A model generated the notes under the pieces. It ran no database searches. It worked only from the letters and a program-made list of their open reading frames with translations, and was not told the DNA's origin. Of a stretch of 64,000 nucleotides of DNA, positions 4,853 through 41,400 are shown one piece after another; position 1 is the first letter of the stretch, and each line of letters starts with the position of its first letter. The DNA comes from Solirubrobacterales bacterium (GTDB lineage: Bacteria; Actinomycetota; Thermoleophilia; Solirubrobacterales; 70-9), in assembly GCA_035764545.1 (NCBI GenBank), contig DASTYZ010000037.1:119-64118 (forward strand), written 5' to 3'. A program made the position numbers and the translations under genes.

Positions 4853-6100
4853 CTACTTGATCGCCTCGAACTCCCCCGTTTCCGGGTCGACCGCGGGGAA
4901 GGAGCCGGTCTCCAACTCCTGCTCGACCGCGGCATTGACCTCGCCCAGCTCGGGCTCGGGCGCCCCGGTGGTGCGGCGCAGGGTGACCAGTTGGCGGAGG
5001 CGGGTCTGGCGCAGCTTCAGGATCTCAAGCACCTCGACCAGGTAGACGCTGGCGGCGAGGGCGAGGACGCCGAAGAAGGCGATTACCGCGGTCCAGAGCG
5101 GGTCGAAGTTGCCGTGGTCGTCGCTGTAGGGGACGAAGCGCAGAGCCAGCGCCAGCAGCGCCATCACCGCGGTCCAGCCGTAGAGGTAGAGCAGCGTGCG
5201 GCGCTGGGAGAAGCCGATGTCGGCCATCCGGTGGTGGAAGTGCCAGCGGTCGGCTTTGTAGATCGGTTTCCCGTATTTGAGCCGCTTGGCGACGACGAAG
5301 CCGGTATCGAGGATCGGCACCGCGAGGATGATCAGCGGCAGAAAGAGGGCGATAACCGCGTTCGTCTTCAGCGCCCCCTGCACCGCCACCGCCCCGAGCA
5401 AGTAGCCGAGCAGGTTCGAGCCGGTGTCCCCCATGAAGGTGCTGGCGGGCGGGAAGCCCCAGCGCAGGTAGCCGAGCGCGGCGCCGGCGGTCAGCGCGGC
5501 GAGGACGCCGGCGGCGGTGCGGTCGAGCGAGAGCGCGATCGTCGCCAGGGTGATGCCGGAGATGACGGCGACGCCGGCGGCGAGGCCGTCGACGCCGTCG
5601 ATCAGGTTGATGACGTTGATCACGGCGACGAAGGCGAGCACGGTGGCGACGTCACCGAGGTGGACGACGCCGCCGCCCGGCAGGGTGAGGAGGTCAACCG
5701 TCCCCGGCGTGAGGCGGCCGAAGAAGGGAAAGGTGAAGTTGTCGACGGTGACGCCGACGGAGACCGGGATGACGACGGCAACGACCTGGCCGAGCAGCTT
5801 TGGGGCCGCTGGGAGGTCGAAGATGTCGTCGAGGACGCCGATCCAGGCGATCGCCACGGCGCCGATCAGGATTGCGTGGCTTTCGGTGTCGTTCGGCAGG
5901 AAGAGCAGCCCGGCGACGGCGACGCCGCCGAGGATGCCGAGACCGCCGAGCTTCGGCGTCGGGGCGAGGTGGAGCTTGCGCTCGCTCGGGTAGTCGATCG
6001 CCCCCACCCGTAGCGCCAGCCACTTCGTCAGCGGCACCAGCAGCAGGGCGAGGACGCCGGCGACCAGGAAGGCGAGGAGGGCGTCGGTGTCAGTGGGCAT
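4853..6100 (-). CDS. polyprenyl-phosphate N-acetylhexosamine-1-phosphate transferase (MraY/WecA family, GT4)
   Basis: 415 aa polytopic protein with motifs NLIDGVDGLA and FMGDTGSN. It sits directly upstream of the atp operon, as rfe/wecA does in mycobacteria. Confidence 0.85.
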   Translation of the reverse strand: MPTDTDALLAFLVAGVLALLLVPLTKWLALRVGAIDYPSERKLHLAPTPKLGGLGILGGVAVAGLLFLPNDTESHAILIGAVAIAWIGVLDDIFDLPAAPKLLGQVVAVVIPVSVGVTVDNFTFPFFGRLTPGTVDLLTLPGGGVVHLGDVATVLAFVAVINVINLIDGVDGLAAGVAVISGITLATIALSLDRTAAGVLAALTAGAALGYLRWGFPPASTFMGDTGSNLLGYLLGAVAVQGALKTNAVIALFLPLIILAVPILDTGFVVAKRLKYGKPIYKADRWHFHHRMADIGFSQRRTLLYLYGWTAVMALLALALRFVPYSDDHGNFDPLWTAVIAFFGVLALAASVYLVEVLEILKLRQTRLRQLVTLRRTTGAPEPELGEVNAAVEQELETGSFPAVDPETGEFEAIK

Positions 6101-7946
6101 AGCGGTCGAACCAGAGGGTAAGCGCCATCAGGCCCCAGATCTGGCGGCTGAGGTCCTCCTGCCCGGAGCAGTGGCGGTCGAGGATCGGGGTGACGGCAGT
6201 GGGATCGAGCAGACCCTGCCGCTCGACCGCCCCCGCTGAGAGCACCTCGCGGGCGAACGGCTCCAGCGGCCCCCGCAGCCAGGCGGCGATCGGGATCGAG
6301 AAGCCCTGCTTGCGGCCATGGGTGATCTCCCGCGGCAGCAGCGGGTCCAAGGCCTTGCGCAGCAGCCGCTTCTTGGCGAAGCCCCGCACTTTCATCCGCC
6401 GCGGCAGCGAGAAGGCGAACTCGGCGACCTTGGGGTCGAGGAAGGGAACGCGCGTCTCCAGCGAGTGGGCCATGCTCGCCCGGTCGGTCTTGACCAGGAG
6501 GTCGTCGACGAGGTAGATGCCGAGGTCGACGTCCTGCATCCGCGCCAGCGGGTCGGCGCCCGCGGTCTCGGCGTAGCGCTCGCGGTAGACGTCAACGGGG
6601 TCCCAACCGGAGGCGCCGGCCAGCTCTGCCCGCTGCCCGGCGGAGAAGATCTCCTTCCAGGCGTGGTGGCGCTCCAGCGGAGGCAGGGCCGCGGCGCGGG
6701 CGAAGCGCTTGGCTTTGTAGTCGAAGCCGACGCGGTCGGTGCGGCTCGGCAGCGCCTCGGCGAGCGGCCGGGCAAGCGGGGCGAGGCGACCGACGCGGCG
6801 GGCGAGGAGGTCGGCGACGTAGGTGTAGTAGCCGCCGAAGAGCTCGTCGCCGCCCTCGCCGGAGAGGGCGACCTTGACGTGGCCGGCGGCGAGCTCGGAG
6901 ACGAGGTGGGTCGGCAGCGCCGAGGAGTCGCCGAAGGGCTCGTCGAAGGCCTCGACCAGCTTCGGCAGCAGCTCGACGGCGTCGGGGCGGACGATCAGCT
7001 CGTGGTGGTCGGTGCCGTAGCGCTCGGCGACGAGGCGGGCGCGGGAGAGCTCGTTGAAGCCGGCCTCCTCGAAGCCGATCGAGAAGGTGCGTACGGGCTC
7101 ACCAGCATGCTCGCTGGCGAGGGCGGCGAGGCCGCCGGAGTCGACGCCGCCGGAGAGGAGGACGCCGACCGGGACGTCGGCGACGAGGTGGGCGCGGACG
7201 CTGTCGTCGAGGACTTCGCGCAGCTCCGCCGCAAGCTCCTCTTCGGACCCTCCGCGCTCTCCGTCGGAGACGGCCCCGGGGCGCGCGTACTGCCGCAGCT
7301 CCACCTCTCCCCCCTCCCAGACGAGCAGGTGCCCCGGGGGCAGCTTGCGAGCCTCGGCGAAGATCGTCAGCGGCGCCGGGATCGAGTTGAAGGCGAGGTA
7401 GGCGGAGAGGGCGCGGGGGTCGATCTCCCGTGAGAAGCCGGGCTGCTCGAGCATCGCCTTCAGCTCCGAGGCGAAGGAGAGGCCGCCGTCCTTGACCCGG
7501 TAGTACAGGGGCTTGATCCCGAAGCGGTCGCGCGCCAGCAGCAGCCGCTGCCGCCGCTTGTCCCAGAGGGCGATCGCGAACATCCCCCGCAGCCGCTCGA
7601 CGAAGCGCTCGCCCTCCTCCTCCCAGAGGTGGACGAGGACCTCGGTGTCGCAGTCGGTGGCAAAGCGGTGGCCCTTGCCCTCGAGCTCGCGCTTGAGCTC
7701 GCGGTAGTTGTAGATCTCACCGTTCTGGACGACGACCGCGCTGCCGTCCTCGTTTTCGATTGGCTGATGGCCGTGGGCGAGGTCGATGATCGAGAGTCGC
7801 CGTGCCGCCAGCGCCGCCGGCCCCTCGCAGAACATTCCCTCGTCGTCGGGGCCGCGGTGAACGAGCCGCCCGCTCATCCGCGCCACTGCCTCGCGGTCGG
7901 GCCCGCGCTCTCGCTCAGCGGCGACGACGCCGCAGATACCGCACAT
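6090..7946 (-). CDS. asnB: asparagine synthetase (glutamine-hydrolysing) family amidotransferase
   Basis: 618 aa with N-terminal MCGI (Cys2 Ntn nucleophile) and PP-loop SGGVDS. Confidence 0.9.
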   Translation of the reverse strand: MCGICGVVAAERERGPDREAVARMSGRLVHRGPDDEGMFCEGPAALAARRLSIIDLAHGHQPIENEDGSAVVVQNGEIYNYRELKRELEGKGHRFATDCDTEVLVHLWEEEGERFVERLRGMFAIALWDKRRQRLLLARDRFGIKPLYYRVKDGGLSFASELKAMLEQPGFSREIDPRALSAYLAFNSIPAPLTIFAEARKLPPGHLLVWEGGEVELRQYARPGAVSDGERGGSEEELAAELREVLDDSVRAHLVADVPVGVLLSGGVDSGGLAALASEHAGEPVRTFSIGFEEAGFNELSRARLVAERYGTDHHELIVRPDAVELLPKLVEAFDEPFGDSSALPTHLVSELAAGHVKVALSGEGGDELFGGYYTYVADLLARRVGRLAPLARPLAEALPSRTDRVGFDYKAKRFARAAALPPLERHHAWKEIFSAGQRAELAGASGWDPVDVYRERYAETAGADPLARMQDVDLGIYLVDDLLVKTDRASMAHSLETRVPFLDPKVAEFAFSLPRRMKVRGFAKKRLLRKALDPLLPREITHGRKQGFSIPIAAWLRGPLEPFAREVLSAGAVERQGLLDPTAVTPILDRHCSGQEDLSRQIWGLMALTLWFDRYAH

Positions 7947-8017
7947 GGGCGGCAGTCTCGCAGCAGTCCCGGGCGTGGCGCTTTTGTTGCCTATAGGACC
8001 ACAAAGGCGACAACCGA

Positions 8018-8148
8018 GGCGCTGGGAGGGTCGAGGTACCCGTCTACCTTCGCTGGGTTATTCGCCAGAAGCGGCCGGCGCCGTCCGAGTTTAGCGGTGG
8101 TGCGAATAGCTAACGCCGCTCGTACGACGGGTACCTCGACCCTCACCC
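8018..8148. repeat. structured hairpin repeat, copy 1 (left inverted repeat of the cassette)
   Basis: Outer stem GGGAGGGTCGAGGTACCCGTC (8024-8044) pairs with GACGGGTACCTCGACCCTC (8126-8144). Inner stem is TATTCGC/GCGAATA. Conserved blocks CTACCTTCGCTGGG and GCTAACGCCGCTCGTACG are shared with copy 2 in inverted orientation. Confidence 0.75.
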
Positions 8149-8222
8149 GATGCAAAATTGCTTACGTCCCATCAGCGTAGGACTCGCTGGGCCCACTCGA
8201 TCCTTGACAAAAAGAGAAGCGG

Positions 8223-9542
8223 TCAGTCAGCAAAGCCTTTGGTCCGGCGAAGCTCCTTTTCAGCACGGCGCAGGCTTGCGGGCAATATTTGCACCATCTC
8301 CCAGCGGTAGTCGTGCTCCTCATCAGGAAAATCGACTTTCAGCGCGTCGGCAAGGTCAGTCAACCTCGGCTGTGCTGCGAGGTCGGACCGCATCTCTCGC
8401 ATGACGGCAGAAGTGGCTTCTTTTGCCCTAACCGCGTCTGCTGCCGAATAGCTCTGCCCTTCGTGTACGGCTCCATTTCGCATCCGATAGGTCGTTGACC
8501 ACCAGGTGCCCCAAACCGATCCCTGGTCGTCCACCCTGATTTTCCTATTCAGCACTTTCGCGAGATGAACCGTCACGCACTCTTTGAGCCAGGCAGCAGA
8601 TGCCGCCTCGCGCTCCTCCGCCGACCAACCCAAGCGTTCGGCTCCCTCGCGGACGGTCGTGCTGACAAGCCCCTCAACGGCCATTCCGAGGGTGATGATG
8701 CAGCGGGTTGCCTCTCCCAACAGCGAGTACGCCCAAGCATCCTCTACGAAGCTAAAGAACTGCAGATATGGCTCGGCACCCTTATTCGCAGCGCTAACCA
8801 TGGCGCTCGCTTGCCAAGCAAAATCCGGGGGAGGTTCATCTTCAACCGCGACATCAAGAAGCTCGGGGCGGATTGACACGACGCAGTGAATCGGCCATTG
8901 ACCGGGCTCCTCTCCGGGCGATACGTGGTCGATGATGATCGGCAGGAGCGGTGGTAGTTGGCCTGCTGAGAGTCGACCGATTCGCCAGTCCCGCGAGGTC
9001 ATACTCAGCGCGGTCAGAAAGCGGTTCAGGTCCGCGAGGCAAACGAAGAACTGAGATCGAAGCCAGTCCAGCTCTTCCTCTCGGCCGGTCTCGTCTGGAA
9101 TTTCGGACGGCGGAATGAAGGACGAGAGGGAAACCACTGAGCGCGTCAGCATTACCCCTCGTCGATCAGCACTCCGTAGACCCCGCCGTCTGGTCAGTCG
9201 CTCACGCCAGTTCAGAAATGGCAGGACTTTGTCGCCAAACGCCTCATCTGCGGCTCGAAGCGGGGGAATGGACTTGACTCTGGCTCGCCGAAATCGGATC
9301 TGAGTTCCCGGCATCAAGTTTTCGGGAATTTCTTTGGCGCCGGGCCATTCCAGGAGCGTCCAAAGATCCTCTCCCGCCCAACCCTCCCACGCGGGTGATC
9401 GCTCCAGAAGTGGGGCCATCTGCCAGTTATTGGGAACCGGAAGGGCGAAGGGAAGCTCAAGGATGTAAGTGATGACCCTCGCTTGAAGGCGTGCGTCCCC
9501 CACACACCTGATGCTGCCGAAGCCGCCGGATGAGTCGAGCAA
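8223..9542 (-). CDS. orphan hypothetical protein with C-terminal HEPN-like RNxxxH motif (candidate RNase or abortive-infection protein)
   Basis: 439-aa ORF, the only long ORF in the lower-GC interval. The motif YRMRNGAVHEG at 8463-8486 fits the HEPN pattern Rx4-6H with Asn after Arg. The start codon is uncertain (TTG at 9542). Confidence 0.55.
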   Translation of the reverse strand: MLDSSGGFGSIRCVGDARLQARVITYILELPFALPVPNNWQMAPLLERSPAWEGWAGEDLWTLLEWPGAKEIPENLMPGTQIRFRRARVKSIPPLRAADEAFGDKVLPFLNWRERLTRRRGLRSADRRGVMLTRSVVSLSSFIPPSEIPDETGREEELDWLRSQFFVCLADLNRFLTALSMTSRDWRIGRLSAGQLPPLLPIIIDHVSPGEEPGQWPIHCVVSIRPELLDVAVEDEPPPDFAWQASAMVSAANKGAEPYLQFFSFVEDAWAYSLLGEATRCIITLGMAVEGLVSTTVREGAERLGWSAEEREAASAAWLKECVTVHLAKVLNRKIRVDDQGSVWGTWWSTTYRMRNGAVHEGQSYSAADAVRAKEATSAVMREMRSDLAAQPRLTDLADALKVDFPDEEHDYRWEMVQILPASLRRAEKELRRTKGFAD

Positions 9543-9682
9543 CCCCTGCGTTGGTCCTCTGATCCGTCACAAATTCGCATGGCACCCGATTCGCTCGCCA
9601 TCACTGGCATGTTTCCCTCAGGGCCGCGCGCCAGTTCGACTGTAGCTGTCGGGGTCAGGCGAAGCTACAGTTCGGATCGCCC

Positions 9683-9807
9683 GGGAAGGGGGGCACCCTC
9701 CGTACGAGCGGCGTTAGCTTTTCGCACCTGCCGGAACTAGGACAGCTGTAGCCGTCTCTGGGCGAAAGCCCAGCGAAGGTAGGTGGTGCCCCCCTTCCCC
9801 CAGCGCC
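9683..9807. repeat. structured hairpin repeat, copy 2 (right inverted repeat of the cassette)
   Basis: Outer stem is GGGAAGGGGGGCACC ... GGTGCCCCCCTTCCC and inner stem GCGAAA/TTTCGC. The reverse complement aligns block for block with copy 1 (GGCGCTGGG, CTACCTTCGCTGGG, GTGCGAAnAGCTAACGCCGCTCGTACG). Confidence 0.75.
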
Positions 9808-9887
9808 AAAGGGCTCGGAACCCGCACCGCTTCCGACATTCGCCCCACCAGGGTGTGCTCAATCTCGGAAGCGTTGAGGGCTGGACT

Positions 9888-10553
9888 TCAGGAGGTCGGC
9901 TGCCCCCGGCCCATCACCTTGGCAACCGTCGCCAGCAGGACTTGGACGTAAAGCTGGACCGAGCGGTCGGCGATGTACTCCATGTCGTGGGCGAGCTTGT
10001 CGGCCCAGGTCTCCTCGCGGGTGATCCGGGTCTGGGCGAAGCCGGTGACGCCGGGGCGGACGACGAGGCGCTGCCAGTACTGGGGGATCTCGCGGCAGAG
10101 CTCGGCGTAGAAGGTCGGCCTGATCGGGCGCGGGCCGACGATCGACATGTCGCCGCGCAGCACGTTCCAGAGCTGCGGCACCTCGTCGAGGTGGGTTTTG
10201 CGCAGGGCGCCGCCGATCCGGGTCCGCTCCTGCTCGGTCCGCCGGGTCAGCTCCTCGCCGTAATAGGGGCCGAGCCGGGTTTCCGCGTCGGGCTTCAGGG
10301 TGCGGAACTTGTACATCCAGAAGAGGTGGCCGGCCTTGCCGACACGGGCGCCGCGGTAGAGGACCGGCCGCCCGGAGTCGAGGGAGATGACGAGGGCGAT
10401 CAGCGCCAGCAGCGGCGAGAGGACGAGCAGGATCGAGGCGGAGATGAGGATGTCGAGCGCCCGCAGGACGGGGTCGATCGGACGCGGGTCGCCATCCGCC
10501 GCGGGCGCGACGAGTTCTTCGAGGCCGGCCTCGGCCTCGGGCAGCTCGCTCAA
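9888..10553 (-). CDS. undecaprenyl-phosphate sugar phosphotransferase (bacterial sugar transferase family)
   Basis: 221 aa with one N-terminal TM segment and motifs GPRPIRP and [10 protein letters not shown], typical of WbaP/PglC-type initiating transferases. Confidence 0.85.
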
Positions 10554-11599
10554 GAAGGCGTTACGGGATGAGGCTCTTCGCGCAATGGTTGGGCTCCGAC
10601 GGTACCGAGGATGGTCTCGACCAGGAAGGCGGGATCGCGGCGTGTCGGCGTCGCCTCGGCGGTCCGCTTCTCCAGCACGAGCGCGCGGGGGTCGGTCAGC
10701 GGGCGCAGGCGACCGGAGCGGATCAAGGCTTCGTCGACGCCGCCGAGGCGGCCGCCGTAGGTGGTGTAGACCGGCGTCGCCAGGGCGGCGGCCTCGCGGT
10801 TCATCGTGCCGCCGGCGGAGAGGACGAGGTCGGCGAGCGCGACCAGGCTCTGCGCCTCGACCGCGCCCGGGGGGACGATCACCGAAGGCAGACCGAGGCC
10901 GGTGATGAACTCGCGCTGCGCCTGCGTGCGCGGCAGGACGACGGCATGGACGCCCTCGTCGCGGCCGAGGCGGTCGAGCACCTTGGGGAACAGCGGGTTC
11001 GACTTGCGGTGGTAGAGAGAGACGTCGGGTGGCGGCCGAACGATGACGACGACGCGCTCGGTCTCGACCCCGAGCTTCGTCAGCGCCTCAGGATCCGGCT
11101 CGAAATCGAAGAGGTAGTACTCCTCCTTCAGGCCCGGATAAGGGAAGAACTTGGCCTCGGTGACGCCGAAGCGGCGCAGGCGGTCGAGCGGCACCGAGTC
11201 CGGGAACATCACCCGCCGCGAGAGGCGGCAGCCGATCCGGTGCTGGGTGACCGCGTACTCGTAGTCATGCATGTTGGCCTCGGGGACGCCGAGCGTCTTC
11301 GCCGCGATCGCGAGGTCGTTAGAGCCGTGGGCGAGCGCCAAGTCGAAGCCGCGGCCGCGGCCGAAGCGCAGCATGCCGCTGCTGCGGCCGGCGAGAGCCG
11401 CGGCCTTGCGCAGCCGCGAGGCGCCGCCGTGGCGGCCGATCGGGGTGTGATCGAGGCCGTGGAGCTCGAGCAGCTGCTGGGTCTGCGCGTAGTCGCGGGA
11501 GGTGATCTCCACCTTGTGCCCTTCGCCCCGCAGCCGCTCGATGATCGGCCGCAGCACGAGGACGTGCGCCGGAGCGCTCATGTCCACCCAGACCTTCAA
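10550..11599 (-). CDS. DUF354-family protein (glycosyltransferase-like)
   Basis: 349 aa. The N-terminus MKVWVDMSAPAHVLVLRPIIERLRGEGHKVEITSRDY matches my recollection of the DUF354 pattern. Overlaps the downstream sugar transferase start by 4 nt. Confidence 0.6.
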   Translation of the reverse strand: MKVWVDMSAPAHVLVLRPIIERLRGEGHKVEITSRDYAQTQQLLELHGLDHTPIGRHGGASRLRKAAALAGRSSGMLRFGRGRGFDLALAHGSNDLAIAAKTLGVPEANMHDYEYAVTQHRIGCRLSRRVMFPDSVPLDRLRRFGVTEAKFFPYPGLKEEYYLFDFEPDPEALTKLGVETERVVVIVRPPPDVSLYHRKSNPLFPKVLDRLGRDEGVHAVVLPRTQAQREFITGLGLPSVIVPPGAVEAQSLVALADLVLSAGGTMNREAAALATPVYTTYGGRLGGVDEALIRSGRLRPLTDPRALVLEKRTAEATPTRRDPAFLVETILGTVGAQPLREEPHPVTPS

Positions 11600-38334: not shown

Positions 38335-39128
38335 TACCCGGCGTGGCAGACCGCGAGGAAGTCGAGGGCGCGGTCGAGGTCGCCGGCGCGCAGGCTGAAG
38401 TCGGCGGCGGAGATCGCCGGGGTGAAGCGGTCGTAGAAGGGCTTGGTCAGCCGCAGCCGTTTGTGGACGGCGTCCCAGCCGAGCTTGATCGCTAACTCGT
38501 GCGCCCTCAGCTTGCGGGCGTGGAAGAGGCCGAGCATCTCGACCCGGGGGAAGTGGCCCTCGCAGAGCTCGCGGAACTCCTCGGCGCGGTACTCCTTCAC
38601 GTGCCAGGGGTTGTCGGACTTCTCCGCCCCCGGCGGCGCCAGCGTCAGCAGGTTCGGGGTCGAGACGAAGGCGGTGCCGCCGGGCGCCAGCATCGACTTG
38701 AAGTGCTCGAGAATCGCCCCCGGATCCTGGACATGCTCGATCGTCTGCAGGAAGACGACGGCGTCGCAGGGCTCGCTGAAGGACTCGACCAAGTCGCGCT
38801 CGAAGCGCAGGCTCGGCCGCTGGTACCGAAGCCGCGCGTGCTCGTGCGCCTCGGGGTTGGCGTCGACCCCGACGACGCTCCCAGCGGTGCGGGCGAGGAC
38901 GTCAGAGCCGTACCCCTCGCCACAGGCCATGTCGACGACCCGCTTCCCCCCAACCCGCTCGGCGATCCACTCGTAGACGACCAGATGGCGGCGGAACCAG
39001 TAGTTCTCCTCCGGCACGTCAGGCAGCGTCCGCTCGCCCGTCAGCGGCAGCGGCGGCACCCCGGGCGGCTGGTTCTCCTGGAGGTAGTGACGCTCCACGG
39101 GCCGGACGCTATTAGAGTTCCGCGCCAT
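38334..39128 (-). CDS. class I SAM-dependent methyltransferase
   Basis: Motif I is VVDMACGEGYG. Start set to MARNSN (39128) rather than the upstream alternative at 39176. Confidence 0.75.
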   Translation of the reverse strand: MARNSNSVRPVERHYLQENQPPGVPPLPLTGERTLPDVPEENYWFRRHLVVYEWIAERVGGKRVVDMACGEGYGSDVLARTAGSVVGVDANPEAHEHARLRYQRPSLRFERDLVESFSEPCDAVVFLQTIEHVQDPGAILEHFKSMLAPGGTAFVSTPNLLTLAPPGAEKSDNPWHVKEYRAEEFRELCEGHFPRVEMLGLFHARKLRAHELAIKLGWDAVHKRLRLTKPFYDRFTPAISAADFSLRAGDLDRALDFLAVCHAG

Positions 39129-40047
39129 GCCGGCCTCCCCCACCGCCACCCATGACCACATCAAGGACGTCAACACCCGCTACCACGACGCGGCCGCCGA
39201 GGAGTACGACGCCAAGTGGGGCATCGACTTCGGCGAGGTCGGCCAGCGGCAGGTGCGGCTGAAGCTGGTCAAGGCGCTGGGCGGGAAGAAGGGCCGTTCA
39301 TTCGGCGACGCGCTGGAGATCGGCTCGGGGACCGGCTACTTCTCGCTCAACCTCGTCCAGCTCGGGGTGATCGAGCGGCTGACCGCGACCGATATCTCGC
39401 CGGGGATGCTGAAGCGGCTGGCGGCGACCGCTGACGCGCTCGGGCTCGACGGCGTGACGACCGTGGAGACCGAGGCCGAGACGCTGCCCTTTGAGGACGA
39501 AAGCTTCGACCTCGTCCTCGGCCACGCCGTCCTCCACCACATCCCCGACCTCGACAAGGCCTTCGCTGAATTCCGCCGCGTCCTGCGGCCCGGCGGGATG
39601 ATCGCCTTCGCCGGTGAGCCCTCCCGCTACGGCGACACCCTGGCGGCGCTGCCGAAGCGCGCCGGGCTGGCGCTGGCGCCGATCTGGCGCCGGGCGGTCG
39701 GCGCCGAGGAGCGCGCCGTCGCCGAAGGCGATCAGTCCCACGACCACTCGCTCGAGGCTGAGGTCGACGTCCACGCCTTCGCTCCCGCCGACCTCCGCCG
39801 CCTGCTCAAGAGTGCCGGCTTCGAGCAGCGACACGTCGGCGGCGAGGAGCTCCTCTCCAATGCCTGGGGCTGGGGCCTGCGCACGGTCGAGTCCAGCGCC
39901 GAGCCGGAATCGGTCTCCTTCCGCTGGCGCCGCTTCGCCTTCAACAGCTACATCGCCCTGCAGAAGGTCGACACCAAAGTGCTCGAGCCCTACCTGCCGG
40001 CCGAGCTCTTCTACAACCTGCTCGTCTCGGCGCGCAAGCCCGCTTAG
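39127..40047 (+). CDS. class I SAM-dependent methyltransferase
   Basis: 306 aa with motif I ALEIGSGTGYF and a later LRPGGMIAFAGEP. Confidence 0.8.
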   Translation: MPASPTATHDHIKDVNTRYHDAAAEEYDAKWGIDFGEVGQRQVRLKLVKALGGKKGRSFGDALEIGSGTGYFSLNLVQLGVIERLTATDISPGMLKRLAATADALGLDGVTTVETEAETLPFEDESFDLVLGHAVLHHIPDLDKAFAEFRRVLRPGGMIAFAGEPSRYGDTLAALPKRAGLALAPIWRRAVGAEERAVAEGDQSHDHSLEAEVDVHAFAPADLRRLLKSAGFEQRHVGGEELLSNAWGWGLRTVESSAEPESVSFRWRRFAFNSYIALQKVDTKVLEPYLPAELFYNLLVSARKPA

Positions 40048-40052
40048 CCATT

Positions 40053-40179
40053 GCGGTAGGGAGGGACGGGTGTCCCCTGGCCTTCCTGGGTTCCTCGCCG
40101 GGCGCGTGGCATCTCTCTGTGAGTGGTCAGTGCGAGGAACAGGACGCCGGTCGGCCAGGGGACACCCGTCCCTCCTTGC
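40053..40179. repeat. structured hairpin repeat, copy 3 (diverged), between convergent genes
   Basis: Perfect 23-bp outer stem GGAGGGACGGGTGTCCCCTGGCC (40060-40082 with 40153-40175) and 9-bp inner stem GTTCCTCGC/GCGAGGAAC. Shares the blocks GGGAGGG, CCTTCnCTGGGTT, GTGCGA and ACGCCGnTCG with copies 1 and 2. Confidence 0.55.
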
Positions 40180-40206
40180 GACAGTCCCGAAGATTCGGAT
40201 TTCATC

Positions 40207-40249
40207 GAGTCCGCGAAAAAGCTCGTATAGCGACGCTTTTCGCGGACTC
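40207..40249 (-). terminator. hairpin downstream of the cyclase gene
   Basis: GAGTCCGCGAAAAAGC-loop-GCTTTTCGCGGACTC forms a 15-bp stem with a one-base bulge, starting 6 nt after the cyclase stop. Confidence 0.45.
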
Positions 40250-40254
40250 GGTGA

Positions 40255-41400
40255 TTAGCGGCCGCGGCCGCCCTCGCGGCGTTCGCCTGGGGCGCGGGCG
40301 CGGAACAGCTTCACCCGGTAGTCGAGGCCCTTGAGGCGGCGTTCGCCTACGTAGGAGTAGTCGAAGCCCTCGGCCGCTTCTTTCGTTGCCTCGTCGAGGA
40401 CGACGCTGCCGGGGCGGGCTACGTTGGTGATGCGGCTGGCTAGGTTGACGGCGCGGCCGTAGTAGTCGCCGGACTGCGGCAGGGTCGGGCCGGAGGCGAT
40501 GCCGGCGCGGAGCCAGGGGAACTGTTGGCCTTCCTGCTCGGCGGCGTGGATCAGCTCCAGTGCCGCTGCGACCATCGGCTCGGGCTCCGCTGAGACCAGC
40601 ATCACCGCGTCGCCGATCGTCTTCACCAGGCGCACCGGGGGTTGGGCGACGGCGGTTGCCATCTCCTCCAGGCGCCCGGCGACCATGCCCAGCTCCTCGG
40701 GGGCGATCTCCTCTCCCAGCCGAGTGAACTCGACGAGGTCGGCGAAGCAGACGGTGAGATCGACGGCGCCGCCGATCTCCCCCGAAGCGAGGTCGGTGGC
40801 GCCGATCACGTCGCGGCGGATCTGTTCGAGCAGGTGCTGCTGCAGGGAGTAGACGACGGTCGGGCCAGCGAGCGGCAGCATGTACTCGGCGGCGGCGGCG
40901 AAGCGCAGGGCAACGTCGCGCTCGGTGTCGCCGGGCTGGGTCAGGGTGCGGATGATCAGCTCGCGATTGGCTTCGGCGATCCGCGCCGTCCCCATCCCGA
41001 TCGTCCGCGCCACCTGCAGCATCCCGTCTTCGGGCAGGCCGAGCTCGAGGAAGCGTTTCATCGCCCGCGCCGCCTCGACGTCGGCGTCGGTGCCGAGGTG
41101 CTCGTCGGGGTCGGGAACCGGAATTCCCAGGGCGGAGCGGAAGCGGAGCAGCATCTCGAGGTCGATGTCAGCGATCCCGGCGACTTCGCGAGCGGTGTAC
41201 CGCGGTCCTTGGCCGGCAACGGCTCGCTCCACCGGCAACAGCGTCAAGCGGTGCGACGCGACCGCCTCTTTCAGCTCCTCCAGCGTGCAGCCTTCACCGT
41301 GCAGCTGCTCGAGCAGCTCCAGCCGCGCCTGCCGCGCCTCCCCCTCGACACCGTCGAGCAGGCCCTCCGCCTCGAAGTCGATCTTCGGCCCCGCCGCCAT
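40255..41400 (-). CDS. class III adenylate/guanylate cyclase domain protein
   Basis: 381 aa with C-terminal VCFADLVEFTRLGE...KTIGDAVMLV...GRAVNLASRI. Confidence 0.8.
   Translation of the reverse strand: MAAGPKIDFEAEGLLDGVEGEARQARLELLEQLHGEGCTLEELKEAVASHRLTLLPVERAVAGQGPRYTAREVAGIADIDLEMLLRFRSALGIPVPDPDEHLGTDADVEAARAMKRFLELGLPEDGMLQVARTIGMGTARIAEANRELIIRTLTQPGDTERDVALRFAAAAEYMLPLAGPTVVYSLQQHLLEQIRRDVIGATDLASGEIGGAVDLTVCFADLVEFTRLGEEIAPEELGMVAGRLEEMATAVAQPPVRLVKTIGDAVMLVSAEPEPMVAAALELIHAAEQEGQQFPWLRAGIASGPTLPQSGDYYGRAVNLASRITNVARPGSVVLDEATKEAAEGFDYSYVGERRLKGLDYRVKLFRARAPGERREGGRGR

What the first reader, a model, noticed from the sequence alone, without database searches (positions are those of the whole stretch)
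8018..9807. Lower-GC single-gene cassette bounded by about 125-bp structured inverted repeats, inserted in an envelope-glycan cluster
A 1.8-kb interval lies between asnB and the sugar-transferase/DUF354 genes, which are all native-looking, very GC-rich and on the same strand. This interval is visibly richer in A/T and holds one orphan ORF. It is delimited by GGCGCTGGG at 8018 and its exact complement CCCAGCGCC ending at 9807. Inside these ends are imperfect inverted repeats of roughly 125 bp (8018-8148 and 9683-9807), each of which folds on itself. An extra perfect 8-bp hairpin (CTGTAGCT/AGCTACAG, 9640-9670) sits just inside the right repeat. No transposase, integrase or obvious target-site duplication is present. 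It therefore looks like a non-autonomous, MITE-like or recombination-delivered cargo cassette rather than a classical IS. Its cargo looks defence-like (see the HEPN finding), which is the most system-like novelty in the window.
Basis: seen in the sequence. Interest (0 to 1): 0.75.

Follow-up and report, generated by a model that had tools for sequence, protein, structure and literature searches.

The report
Foreign gene inside resident palindrome pair
A horizontally acquired gene, probably an RNA-cutting defence or toxin gene, sits in the gap between two copies of a hairpin-forming intergenic repeat that related genomes already carry at this spot, so the inverted repeats are resident sequence and not the ends of a mobile cassette.

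Summary
A low-GC interval (GC3 0.64 against 0.91-0.95 in neighbours) holds one 426-aa ORF between two ~135-nt self-folding inverted repeats.

The repeats belong to an undescribed structured repeat family of Solirubrobacterales/Thermoleophilia. It almost always occurs as tail-to-tail '+ then -' doublets, mostly at a few conserved intergenic sites just after stop codons, which resembles REP/BIME elements.

At least five relatives carry the same doublet at the same asnB/sugar-transferase junction with no ORF (about eight counting metagenome loci). The ~1.43-kb insert (8152-9582) lies in the doublet's spacer and is flanked by an 8-bp direct repeat, CACCCGAT. The closest relative keeps the ORF but has lost the repeats. 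None of eight other ORF-homologue loci has the repeat. Other lineages hold unrelated cargo in this doublet, and an IS sits in a doublet at another site.

So this is a permissive insertion hotspot between two resident palindromes, not a MITE-like cassette.

The cargo belongs to an unannotated family (236 representatives) with an invariant RNxxxH motif and a HEPN-like C-terminal domain. Its homologues lie in defence-island or mobile-element contexts. Interest is moderate.

The parts
8018..8152 (+). Resident repeat copy, 'B' subtype (interior GCCGTCCGAG), next to the asnB start. It has a 19-bp perfect outer stem at 8026-8044/8126-8144.
   Evidence: R1 covariance model 126.6 bits. Fold -72.9 kcal/mol, z -4.4. 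Orthologous copies with near-identical stems occur at the same place in L053, L054 and L034.
9675..9807 (-). Resident repeat copy, 'A' subtype (interior GCTGTCCTAG), downstream of the Bac_transf stop and in the sense of that gene. It has a 15-bp perfect outer stem.
   Evidence: R1 103.8 bits. Fold -73.1 kcal/mol, z -4.4. A nearly identical orthologous copy is in L109, and orthologous A copies are in L053, L054 and L047.
9591..9674 (.). Resident doublet spacer plus the tail of the A copy. It includes the 8-bp hairpin CTGTAGCT/AGCTACAG at 9640-9670.
   Evidence: Aligns to the spacer and A-tail of the empty doublet L053 (ACTGGCA..TCCCT..GGGCC.., CGAAGC..TCGAAC).
8144..8151 (.). Left copy of the 8-bp direct repeat CACCCGAT, at the base of the B copy's outer stem. 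Candidate target-site duplication.
   Evidence: These are the only two CACCCGAT occurrences in 7900-9950, and they lie exactly where homology to empty sites breaks and resumes.
9583..9590 (.). Right copy of the 8-bp direct repeat CACCCGAT. Resident spacer sequence resumes directly after it.
8152..9582 (-). Inserted foreign segment, 1431 bp, GC 0.59, carrying only the ORF with 71 bp of 3' and 79 bp of 5' non-coding sequence.
   Evidence: Absent from orthologous doublets. Composition. L001 shares 8218-9564 at 93%.
8223..9503 (-). Cargo ORF, 426 aa from the GTG at 9503. It has an N-terminal alpha/beta domain of unknown fold (~1-240) and a C-terminal HEPN-like helical domain (~245-385).
   Evidence: Homologues. 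AF2 pLDDT 92.9, pTM 0.86. Foldseek compact hits are HEPN proteins 2hsb, 1wol and 1ufb. No library annotation.
8463..8480 (-). Codons for R-N-G-A-V-H, the Rx4H HEPN-type motif (R340/N341/H345 in alignment numbering).
   Evidence: Invariant or nearly invariant in 23 close relatives and at least 90% conserved in 65 distant family members, together with E275, W332 and Y337.
40052..40183 (+). Third, divergent copy of the same repeat family, with a 23-bp perfect outer stem. It starts 5 nt after the stop of gene 39127-40047 (+).
   Evidence: R1 59.4 bits, E 4e-10. Sequence. The site is orthologous to 12 doublet-bearing loci. Gene context.

Best explanation
The two ~135-nt inverted repeats are the two halves of a resident intergenic doublet. 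The doublet is two copies of a hairpin-forming repeat family of Solirubrobacterales/Thermoleophilia arranged tail to tail. It is present at the orthologous asnB/sugar-transferase junction in many related genomes.

These elements behave like REP/BIME-type extragenic palindromes. They begin a few nucleotides after stop codons, in the sense of the adjacent gene. They usually sit back to back between convergent genes. Their long outer stems stay perfectly Watson-Crick while the sequence changes, which suggests a constraint at DNA level or on both strands. Their likely role, which is inferred and not shown, is as 3'-end or terminator-type structures.

A 1.43-kb piece of foreign, lower-GC DNA carrying a single gene was inserted into the short, unconstrained spacer between the two copies, at the base of the B copy's stem. 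This produced an 8-bp direct duplication (CACCCGAT). That points to a staggered-cut (transposition-like) or microhomology-mediated integration, and this step is also inferred. The insert carries no recombinase and no conserved ends.

The spacer of this doublet is a permissive hotspot. Other lineages carry unrelated small genes there, and an IS sits in the spacer of a doublet at another site. Copies and cargo are later lost by deletion, as in L001, L109 and L034.

The cargo encodes a member of an unannotated ~400-aa protein family with a C-terminal HEPN-type domain. It is most likely an RNase-type toxin or anti-phage effector whose N-terminal domain acts as sensor or regulator. That function is inferred from the motif, the fold and the genomic neighbourhood.
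For: Repeats are resident:
- Orthologous junctions in L053, L054, L047, L049 and L045 (80-89% nt identity in the flanks), and in metagenome loci L105, L116 and L090, hold both copies 45-149 bp apart with no ORF.
- The window's B copy has the same stem sequence as those of L053 and L034.

Family properties:
- About 63 true hits in genomes and most of 49 in metagenomes, almost all Solirubrobacterales/Thermoleophilia.
- 28 plus about 24 doublets, all '+ then -', with gaps of 33-159 bp in the genome set.
- About 5 conserved orthologous sites, plus a burst in one MAG.
- Copies start 5-45 nt after stop codons, in the sense of the adjacent gene.
- 98% of cells are paired. 23 of 31 pairs have double-sided changes, against 15.1 in shuffles (0/500 reached the observed value) and 4-10 in slid controls. 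G-U intermediates are almost absent.

Insertion:
- Homology to the empty site breaks at 8151 and resumes at 9583, with CACCCGAT on both sides.
- GC3 is 0.64 against 0.91-0.95.

Repeats are not tied to the gene:
- L001 has the ORF at 93% nt identity but no repeats.
- 0 of 8 homologue loci has a model hit.
- No conserved UTRs or ends are shared with L074 or L075.

Hotspot:
- L034 has a different 232-aa ORF.
- L088 has a zinc-ribbon ORF plus a small membrane ORF.
- L109 has a decayed remnant of the L088-type cargo.
- The L020 doublet is split by an IS with a DDE_Tnp_1 transposase and a 19-bp TIR.

Cargo:
- 236 family representatives.
- Near-invariant E275, W332, Y337, R340, N341 and H345.
- High-confidence model. 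The only compact fold matches are HEPN proteins, with prob 0.94 and target TM 0.58-0.61.
- Neighbours include Lamassu-type genes, HEPN/MNT, AAA_21/AAA_15 ATPase, PIN, GmrSD and T4SS genes.
Against: - The 8-bp direct repeat is a single instance. My rough, uncomputed estimate of its chance probability, given the junction search space, is a few percent.
- The candidate terminal inverted repeat of the insert is not significant (75/1000 shuffles).
- The L034 and L088 inserts show no comparable duplication and sit at other positions in the spacer, so the integration mechanism is not established.
- The terminator or 3'-end role of the repeats is inferred from placement only. No U-tract or consensus terminator was found. 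At the asnB site the genes are tandem, not convergent.
- Repeat copies are only slightly more conserved than third codon positions (76-87% against 72-77%).
- The HEPN assignment rests on a motif plus fold matches with Foldseek E above 0.1. Pfam HEPN models and PADLOC do not match, and a profile search of PDB sequences found no HEPN protein.
- The genome scan used an exact 18-mer, so copy numbers and the apparent invariance of that core are biased.
Confidence: 0.72

Rival explanations
1. One reading: the 1.8-kb unit 8018-9807 is a non-autonomous, MITE-like mobile cassette whose ends are the ~125-bp inverted repeats.
For: The repeats are real, inverted and flank a foreign-composition gene. The repeat family did proliferate in one MAG.
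Against: The empty orthologous sites contain both repeats. The nearest relative has the gene without the repeats. No homologue locus has the repeat. No duplication flanks 8018 and 9807. The stems differ between the two copies, whereas transposase-recognised TIRs would be alike.
Confidence: 0.04
2. Cassette exchange by homologous recombination. Genes lying between an A and a B copy are swapped between genomes by crossovers in the conserved repeat copies, so the repeats act as portable homology arms without being transposon ends.
For: At least three unrelated cargos occupy the same doublet in related lineages. The repeat cores are highly conserved across genomes, which offers homology. Locus similarity is mosaic: L109 is closer to the window than L001 on the Bac_transf side but not in asnB.
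Against: The window's B copy and its flanks are clearly orthologous to those of relatives. The insert junction shows an 8-bp duplication inside the spacer rather than a crossover within the copies. The three cargos occupy different spacer positions. ORF homologues elsewhere never lie between repeats.
Confidence: 0.12
3. The ORF is ancestral at this junction and was deleted in relatives, so the doublet-only state is derived.
For: Deletions do occur here: L001 lost both copies, L109 lost the B copy and L034 lost the A-copy interior.
Against: ORF GC3 is 0.64 in a genome with GC3 of 0.91-0.95. At least five to eight relatives spanning 80-89% identity have compact doublets. The duplicated CACCCGAT is the signature of a gain. 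Homologues occur at unrelated sites in other genomes.
Confidence: 0.06
4. The repeats are genes for a structured non-coding RNA that works with the ORF, for example as an antitoxin or guide RNA for the HEPN protein, so repeat and gene form one system.
For: Structure and covariation are strong. HEPN proteins often partner with RNAs or antitoxins (general knowledge).
Against: The repeat occurs at several conserved sites and at more than 20 sites in one MAG without the ORF. The ORF family occurs without the repeat in 8 of 8 loci. The near-total lack of G-U pairs is atypical for an RNA-only constraint. There is no Rfam match.
Confidence: 0.03

Closest known systems
REP/BIME and REPIN extragenic palindromes of Proteobacteria (PMC2817692, PMC3116915, PMC3333891)
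   Same: They are intergenic and placed just after gene ends. They are hairpin-forming. They are organised as inverted pairs of two alternating subtypes with a short variable linker. They are vertically persistent at orthologous sites with occasional bursts, and they form mosaics with other palindromic modules.
   Different: The unit is about 135-200 nt with a multi-helix interior and conserved unpaired strands, against a 20-40 nt simple REP hairpin. Most genomes in the sample show only a handful of sites rather than hundreds. No RAYT association was tested. The clade is Actinomycetota (Thermoleophilia). The outer stem varies freely in sequence between sites.
Insertion of IS elements into REP/BIME sequences (PMC1525189; IS1397, ISPpu9 in PMC12288879)
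   Same: Foreign DNA sits inside a palindromic repeat cluster. One doublet (L020) really does hold an IS with TIRs.
   Different: The window's insert has no transposase and no significant TIR. Insert positions differ between lineages, so there is no evidence for a dedicated targeting enzyme.
MITEs and composite non-autonomous transposons
   Same: Inverted repeats flank a short segment, and no transposase lies inside.
   Different: The repeats are present in the empty site, are not duplicated with the insertion, and are not associated with the gene elsewhere.
Integron gene cassettes with attC sites (for example Vibrio VCRs)
   Same: Single promoter-less-looking ORFs of foreign composition lie next to ~120-nt imperfect palindromes conserved in structure more than in sequence.
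   Different: The copies are inverted relative to each other, not in a head-to-tail array. No cassette-borne attC lies in the insert, and the repeats pre-exist at the site. An integrase was not searched for.
HEPN-domain toxins and abortive-infection effectors (small HEPN proteins 2hsb, 1wol, 1ufb; AbiV 9bj7)
   Same: A conserved Rx4H motif with an upstream conserved acidic residue, a helical-bundle fold match, and defence-island neighbourhoods.
   Different: There is no match to any Pfam HEPN family or PADLOC model. The protein has a ~240-aa N-terminal alpha/beta domain with no structural match. It is a single gene with no adjacent MNT-type antitoxin.

Membership tests
MITE / IR-bounded non-autonomous transposon | The inverted repeats are the termini of the mobile unit, so they are absent from the empty site | tested here: not met
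   Empty orthologous junctions carry both repeat copies.
MITE / IR-bounded non-autonomous transposon | A target-site duplication lies immediately outside the inverted repeats | tested here: not met
   There is no direct repeat outside 8018 and 9807. The only junction duplication lies inside the repeats, at 8144-8151 and 9583-9590.
MITE / IR-bounded non-autonomous transposon | The same repeat-cargo unit recurs at other loci | tested here: not met
   0 of 8 ORF-homologue loci has a repeat.
REP/BIME/REPIN-type extragenic palindromes | Intergenic, hairpin-forming, located at the 3' ends of genes | tested here: met
   Copies begin 5-45 nt after stop codons, in the sense of the adjacent gene. Folds.
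REP/BIME/REPIN-type extragenic palindromes | Organised as inverted pairs of alternating subtypes with short linkers | tested here: met
   About 52 doublets, all '+ then -', typically A plus B subtypes, with gaps of 33-159 bp in the genome set.
REP/BIME/REPIN-type extragenic palindromes | Short (20-40 nt) REP unit with a conserved 5' tetranucleotide, in hundreds of copies per genome | tested here: not met
   The unit is ~135 nt with an inner helix and conserved loops. Most MAGs in the sample show only a few sites, and one shows more than 20. The copy census is limited by the exact-core search.
REP/BIME/REPIN-type extragenic palindromes | A cognate RAYT (Y1 HUH transposase) flanked by the repeats | not tested
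   No whole-genome protein scan was possible with the loci held.
Integron cassette / attC | attC sites in one orientation at cassette boundaries, with an IntI integrase and attI nearby | tested here: not met
   The copies are always inverted pairs, and no additional element lies inside the insert. An integrase was not searched for genome-wide.
Structured RNA families of Rfam 15 | A covariance-model match at the gathering score or with a plausible E-value | tested here: not met
   No hit over the repeats at the gathering threshold or at E up to 10.
HEPN superfamily | A conserved Rx4-6H motif | tested here: met
   R340-N341-x3-H345 is at least 90% conserved over 65 divergent members.
HEPN superfamily | The HEPN alpha-helical bundle fold | tested here: inconclusive
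   The only compact Foldseek matches are HEPN proteins (2hsb prob 0.94, target TM 0.59; 1wol 0.58; 1ufb 0.61), but E-values are 0.3-3.
HEPN superfamily | Sequence-profile membership (Pfam HEPN families) or similarity to solved HEPN proteins | tested here: not met
   No Pfam hit in any of 65 members other than TPR-type families in a few long members, plus three marginal single-member hits. No HEPN chain was found in the PDB profile search.
HEPN superfamily | Metal-independent RNase activity | not testable with these tools
   Needs biochemistry.
Known anti-phage defence systems (PADLOC-DB 2.0) | A match to a system component model | tested here: not met
   No PADLOC hit. Only guilt by association supports a defence role.

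The most novel reading that the evidence does not exclude
The tail-to-tail doublet may not be just a permissive gap. It could be a structure-specific gene-capture platform. In this reading, paired long perfect palindromes at a conserved site provoke breaks or are recognised by an unidentified enzyme, and they repeatedly acquire single, insulated, foreign genes of accessory or defence type. Three unrelated cargos at one doublet, plus an IS in a doublet at another site, are consistent with that. This would be a new kind of chromosomal integration hotspot in Thermoleophilia, delivering here a new HEPN-type effector family with an N-terminal domain of unmatched fold.
Probability: 0.12. Interest if true: 0.75.

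Novelty: new variant of a known kind. Interest (0 to 1): 0.45.

Why it matters
It corrects an attractive but wrong reading: inverted repeats around an odd gene do not make a mobile cassette. An empty-site comparison reverses the inference.

The work also defines three things that appear to be undescribed:
- A large, strongly covarying palindromic repeat family in Thermoleophilia. It has REP/BIME-like organisation, and a covariance model is now available for it.
- A recurrent insertion hotspot in the spacer of one such doublet inside a cell-envelope glycan cluster.
- An unannotated ~400-aa HEPN-type protein family with a confident structural model.

These are useful leads for people who study bacterial repeats, transcript 3' ends in high-GC Actinomycetota, and new defence or toxin genes. 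They extend known themes and do not open a new category.

Tried and rejected
- Rfam at the gathering and permissive thresholds, and tRNA/tmRNA scans, found nothing over the repeats.
- A hammerhead-like CUGANGA reading of the interior was rejected, because that position varies among copies (CUGGAGA, CUGGGGA).
- Terminal inverted repeats of the 1.43-kb insert: the best alignment (TGCAAAATTG.. / TGCGAATTTG..) is not significant (75/1000 shuffles).
- Conserved element ends: the UTRs are not shared with the 75%-identical homologue loci L074 and L075.
- A recurrent duplication at the L034 and L088 inserts: none was found.
- The sigma-70 promoter and intrinsic-terminator scan of 7900-9950 was uninformative.
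- Pfam, PADLOC, NCBIfam and PHROGs gave no hits for the ORF, the L034 cargo or the 393-aa paralogue.
- The profile search of PDB sequences gave only chance-level hits.
- Foldseek against viral structures gave nothing.
- The first AF2 run, with the shallow alignment, was poor (pLDDT 59) and was replaced by the deep-alignment run.
- A literature search for repeats in Solirubrobacterales found nothing relevant.
- The idea that the ORF is itself a transposase was considered and set aside. Each homologue cluster was seen on very few contigs (mostly one), there are no conserved ends, and the active-site pattern is HEPN-type rather than DDE.
Full report
**1. Checking the observation**

The interval is as described.
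- GC falls from about 0.70 to 0.57-0.61 between 8050 and 9550. GC3 of the only credible ORF is 0.64, against 0.91-0.95 for the five neighbouring genes.
- Those neighbours are asnB (6090-7946), a Bac_transf sugar transferase (9888-10553) and DUF354 (10550-11599), all on the minus strand.
- The two repeats (8018-8152 on +, 9675-9807 on -) align at 82% column identity.
- Each has a perfect closing stem, of 19 and 15 bp.
- Each folds about 4.3 standard deviations better than shuffles.
The closing stems differ completely in sequence between the two copies yet stay perfectly paired, while an inner core and short outer flanks are conserved.
- Neither Rfam nor the tRNA scan recognises them.

**2. What the repeats are**

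*Distribution and arrangement.* Scanning one genome per species with the 18-nt core returned 70 stretches. About 63 are true copies, almost all from Solirubrobacterales/Conexibacteraceae/Thermoleophilia MAGs. A metagenome scan gave 49 more stretches. A covariance model (R1) built from 55 copies then found partners that the exact search had missed.

Outside one MAG, nearly every copy belongs to a tail-to-tail pair that is always '+ then -'. There are 28 such pairs in genomes and about 24 in metagenomes. In the genome set the gaps are only 33-159 bp. Two subtypes, A and B, usually make up a pair.

*Structure.* On the model-based alignment:
- 98% of cells are paired.
- 23 of 31 pairs show changes on both sides. 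Shuffles average 15.1 and none of 500 reaches the observed value. Slid controls give 4-10.
- One-sided G-U changes are almost absent.

Perfect Watson-Crick arms that change together suggest a constraint at DNA level or on both strands, rather than an ordinary RNA helix. This is an inference.

*Sites.* Clustering loci by their flanks shows that these elements occupy about five conserved orthologous sites. One is the asnB junction (11 loci). Another (13 loci) includes a third, divergent copy in this window at 40052-40183. In addition, one MAG has more than 20 unique single-copy sites.

At three of the conserved sites the doublet lies between convergent genes. Each copy starts 5-45 nt after the adjacent stop codon, in the sense of that gene. 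In the burst MAG the copies abut stop codons and are followed by other palindromic modules.

Orthologous copies are 76-87% identical. asnB third codon positions are 72-77% identical, and the spacer is 25-50% identical over its length.

All of this is the organisation of REP/BIME/REPIN-type extragenic palindromes (PMC2817692, PMC3116915, PMC3333891). The unit here is much larger and more elaborate, and it occurs in a different phylum.

**3. The empty site**

Ten of the genome loci recovered through the repeat turned out to be orthologous asnB/sugar-transferase junctions.
- L053, L054, L047, L049 and L045 have both copies side by side and no ORF. The metagenome loci L105, L116 and L090 show the same state.
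- The window's B copy even shares its stem sequence with those of L053 and L034.
- Homology to the empty doublet runs to 8151 (..CCCTCACCCGAT). It resumes at 9583 (CACCCGAT-TCGCTCGCC-ATCACTGGCA..), continues through the resident spacer and A-copy tail, which include the 9640-9670 hairpin, and then enters the A copy.

The true insert is therefore 8152-9582 (1431 bp), flanked by an 8-bp direct repeat. This duplication suggests a staggered-cut or microhomology-mediated integration. It is a single instance, and the candidate terminal inverted repeat is not significant.

**4. The repeats do not travel with the gene**

- The closest relative (L001, ~92% nt identity, same synteny) has the ORF at 93% identity. 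The right copy is replaced by about 30 bp, and about 300 bp of unrelated sequence sits where the left copy should be. Its sugar-transferase 3' end is also altered, which points to secondary deletion.
- Homologues at 60-75% identity lie at unrelated sites, and none of eight loci has a model hit.
- The non-coding ends of the insert are not shared with the 75%-identical loci.

**5. A hotspot**

The same doublet holds other cargo in other lineages:
- L034: a 232-aa ORF with a hydrophobic N-terminus, on the opposite strand. The A copy there is reduced to its tail, one stem arm and its flank.
- L088: an FmdB-like zinc-ribbon ORF plus a small membrane ORF, at GC 0.57.
- L109: a decayed remnant of the L088-type cargo, with a cleanly deleted B copy. 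This locus is very close to the window in its flanks.

A doublet at another site (L020) is split by an IS that has a DDE_Tnp_1 transposase and a 19-bp perfect TIR. The inserts occupy different positions within the spacer. This argues for a permissive, unconstrained gap between two structured elements rather than a precise attachment site. REP clusters are known IS targets (PMC1525189).

**6. The cargo**

- The first search found only 26 close homologues, with no annotation.
- An exhaustive profile search found 236 cluster representatives, mostly 390-420 aa and matching over the full length.
- Across 65 divergent members the near-invariant residues are E275, W332, Y337, R340, N341 and H345, which form an Rx4H HEPN-type pattern, plus L15/P16 and L157/N158.
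- With the deep alignment AlphaFold2 gives pLDDT 92.9 and pTM 0.86.
- Foldseek finds no whole-protein match. Its only compact matches are small HEPN proteins (2hsb prob 0.94; 1wol; 1ufb) and, more weakly, AbiV.
- The ~240-aa N-terminal alpha/beta domain matches nothing in the PDB or the viral library.
- Pfam, PADLOC, NCBIfam and PHROGs are silent. A few of the long members carry TPR repeats.
- Homologues sit beside Lamassu-type genes and a HEPN/MNT pair (L076), an AAA_21/AAA_15 ATPase and a PIN gene (L077), and T4SS and GmrSD genes (L002).

A HEPN-type RNase toxin or defence effector is the best functional guess. It rests on the motif, the fold and the neighbourhood, not on membership in a described family.

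**7. Verdict**

It is a foreign, single-gene, probably defence-type insertion, and relatives have an empty site. The inverted repeats, however, are the two halves of a resident palindromic doublet into whose spacer the gene was inserted. The 'MITE-like cassette' reading fails every membership test.

What remains of interest:
- an apparently undescribed structured repeat family;
- a recurrent insertion hotspot within it;
- an unannotated HEPN-type protein family.

These are new variants of known kinds, of moderate interest.

Noticed in passing
window 40052-40183 (+), with the hairpin at about 40205-40245: This is a third, divergent copy of the repeat family, with a 23-bp perfect outer stem and a compensated inner helix (GGTTCCTCGC/GCGAGGAAC). 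It starts 5 nt after the stop of gene 39127-40047 and is followed by a separate terminator-like hairpin before the convergent gene 40255-41400. Relatives carry a full doublet at this orthologous site.
   Followed up: partly
L003 7311-8492 (-) and L076 7310-8491 (-): The conserved 393-aa gene convergent with the ORF homologue is itself a distant paralogue of it (24% identity, tblastn E 1e-21). The family can therefore occur as convergent paralogue pairs.
   Followed up: partly
L005-L071 (contigs of MAG CAYXFL01, uncultured Conexibacteraceae): This MAG has more than 20 near-identical single B-type copies at unique sites. Each abuts the stop codon of the upstream gene and is followed by other palindromic modules (for example GGCCCGGCCTCGGACGGCC and GGGCGCTATAGCGCCC). 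This is a lineage-specific burst with BIME-like mosaics. No cognate transposase was looked for.
   Followed up: partly
L034 4402-5100 (+): An unrelated 232-aa low-GC ORF (GC3 0.71 against about 0.9 expected for native genes, locus GC 0.70) with a hydrophobic N-terminus and no family match occupies the same doublet spacer. The A copy beside it has collapsed to its tail, one stem arm and its 5' flank, which is consistent with a hairpin-mediated deletion.
   Followed up: partly
L088 about 1660-2370, and L109 about 7090-7250: A third cargo sits in the same doublet: an FmdB-like zinc-ribbon ORF (MPIYEFRCPACGFEFEE..) plus a small membrane-protein ORF on the other strand. L109 keeps only a decayed piece of the latter and has precisely lost the B copy.
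   Followed up: partly
L001 5880-5940 and 7284-7586: In the closest relative the sugar-transferase C-terminus differs (226 against 221 aa) and its stop codon lies 2 nt before the ORF-proximal sequence. On the other side, 300 bp of unrelated sequence replaces the B copy. The origin of that 300 bp was not examined.
   Followed up: no
window 9821-9880: A 29-nt imperfect inverted repeat (76% complementary, 2-nt loop) lies directly after the Bac_transf stop codon, outside the A copy. It is conserved in L034 and L109 and may be the gene's own 3' hairpin.
   Followed up: no
alignment A6 columns 40/109 (window about 8056/8112): A G-U pair at the base of the inner helix is conserved in 70 of 75 copies. 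It is the only consistent wobble in an otherwise strictly Watson-Crick structure. It would be an A-C mismatch on the other strand, which is a possible hint that the sense strand matters.
   Followed up: no
L020 3988-4978: An IS of about 990 bp with a 19-bp perfect terminal inverted repeat (CTAGATGGTTGATTCCACG), a CTAG at both junctions and a DDE_Tnp_1 transposase is inserted in the spacer of a site-3 doublet.
   Followed up: yes
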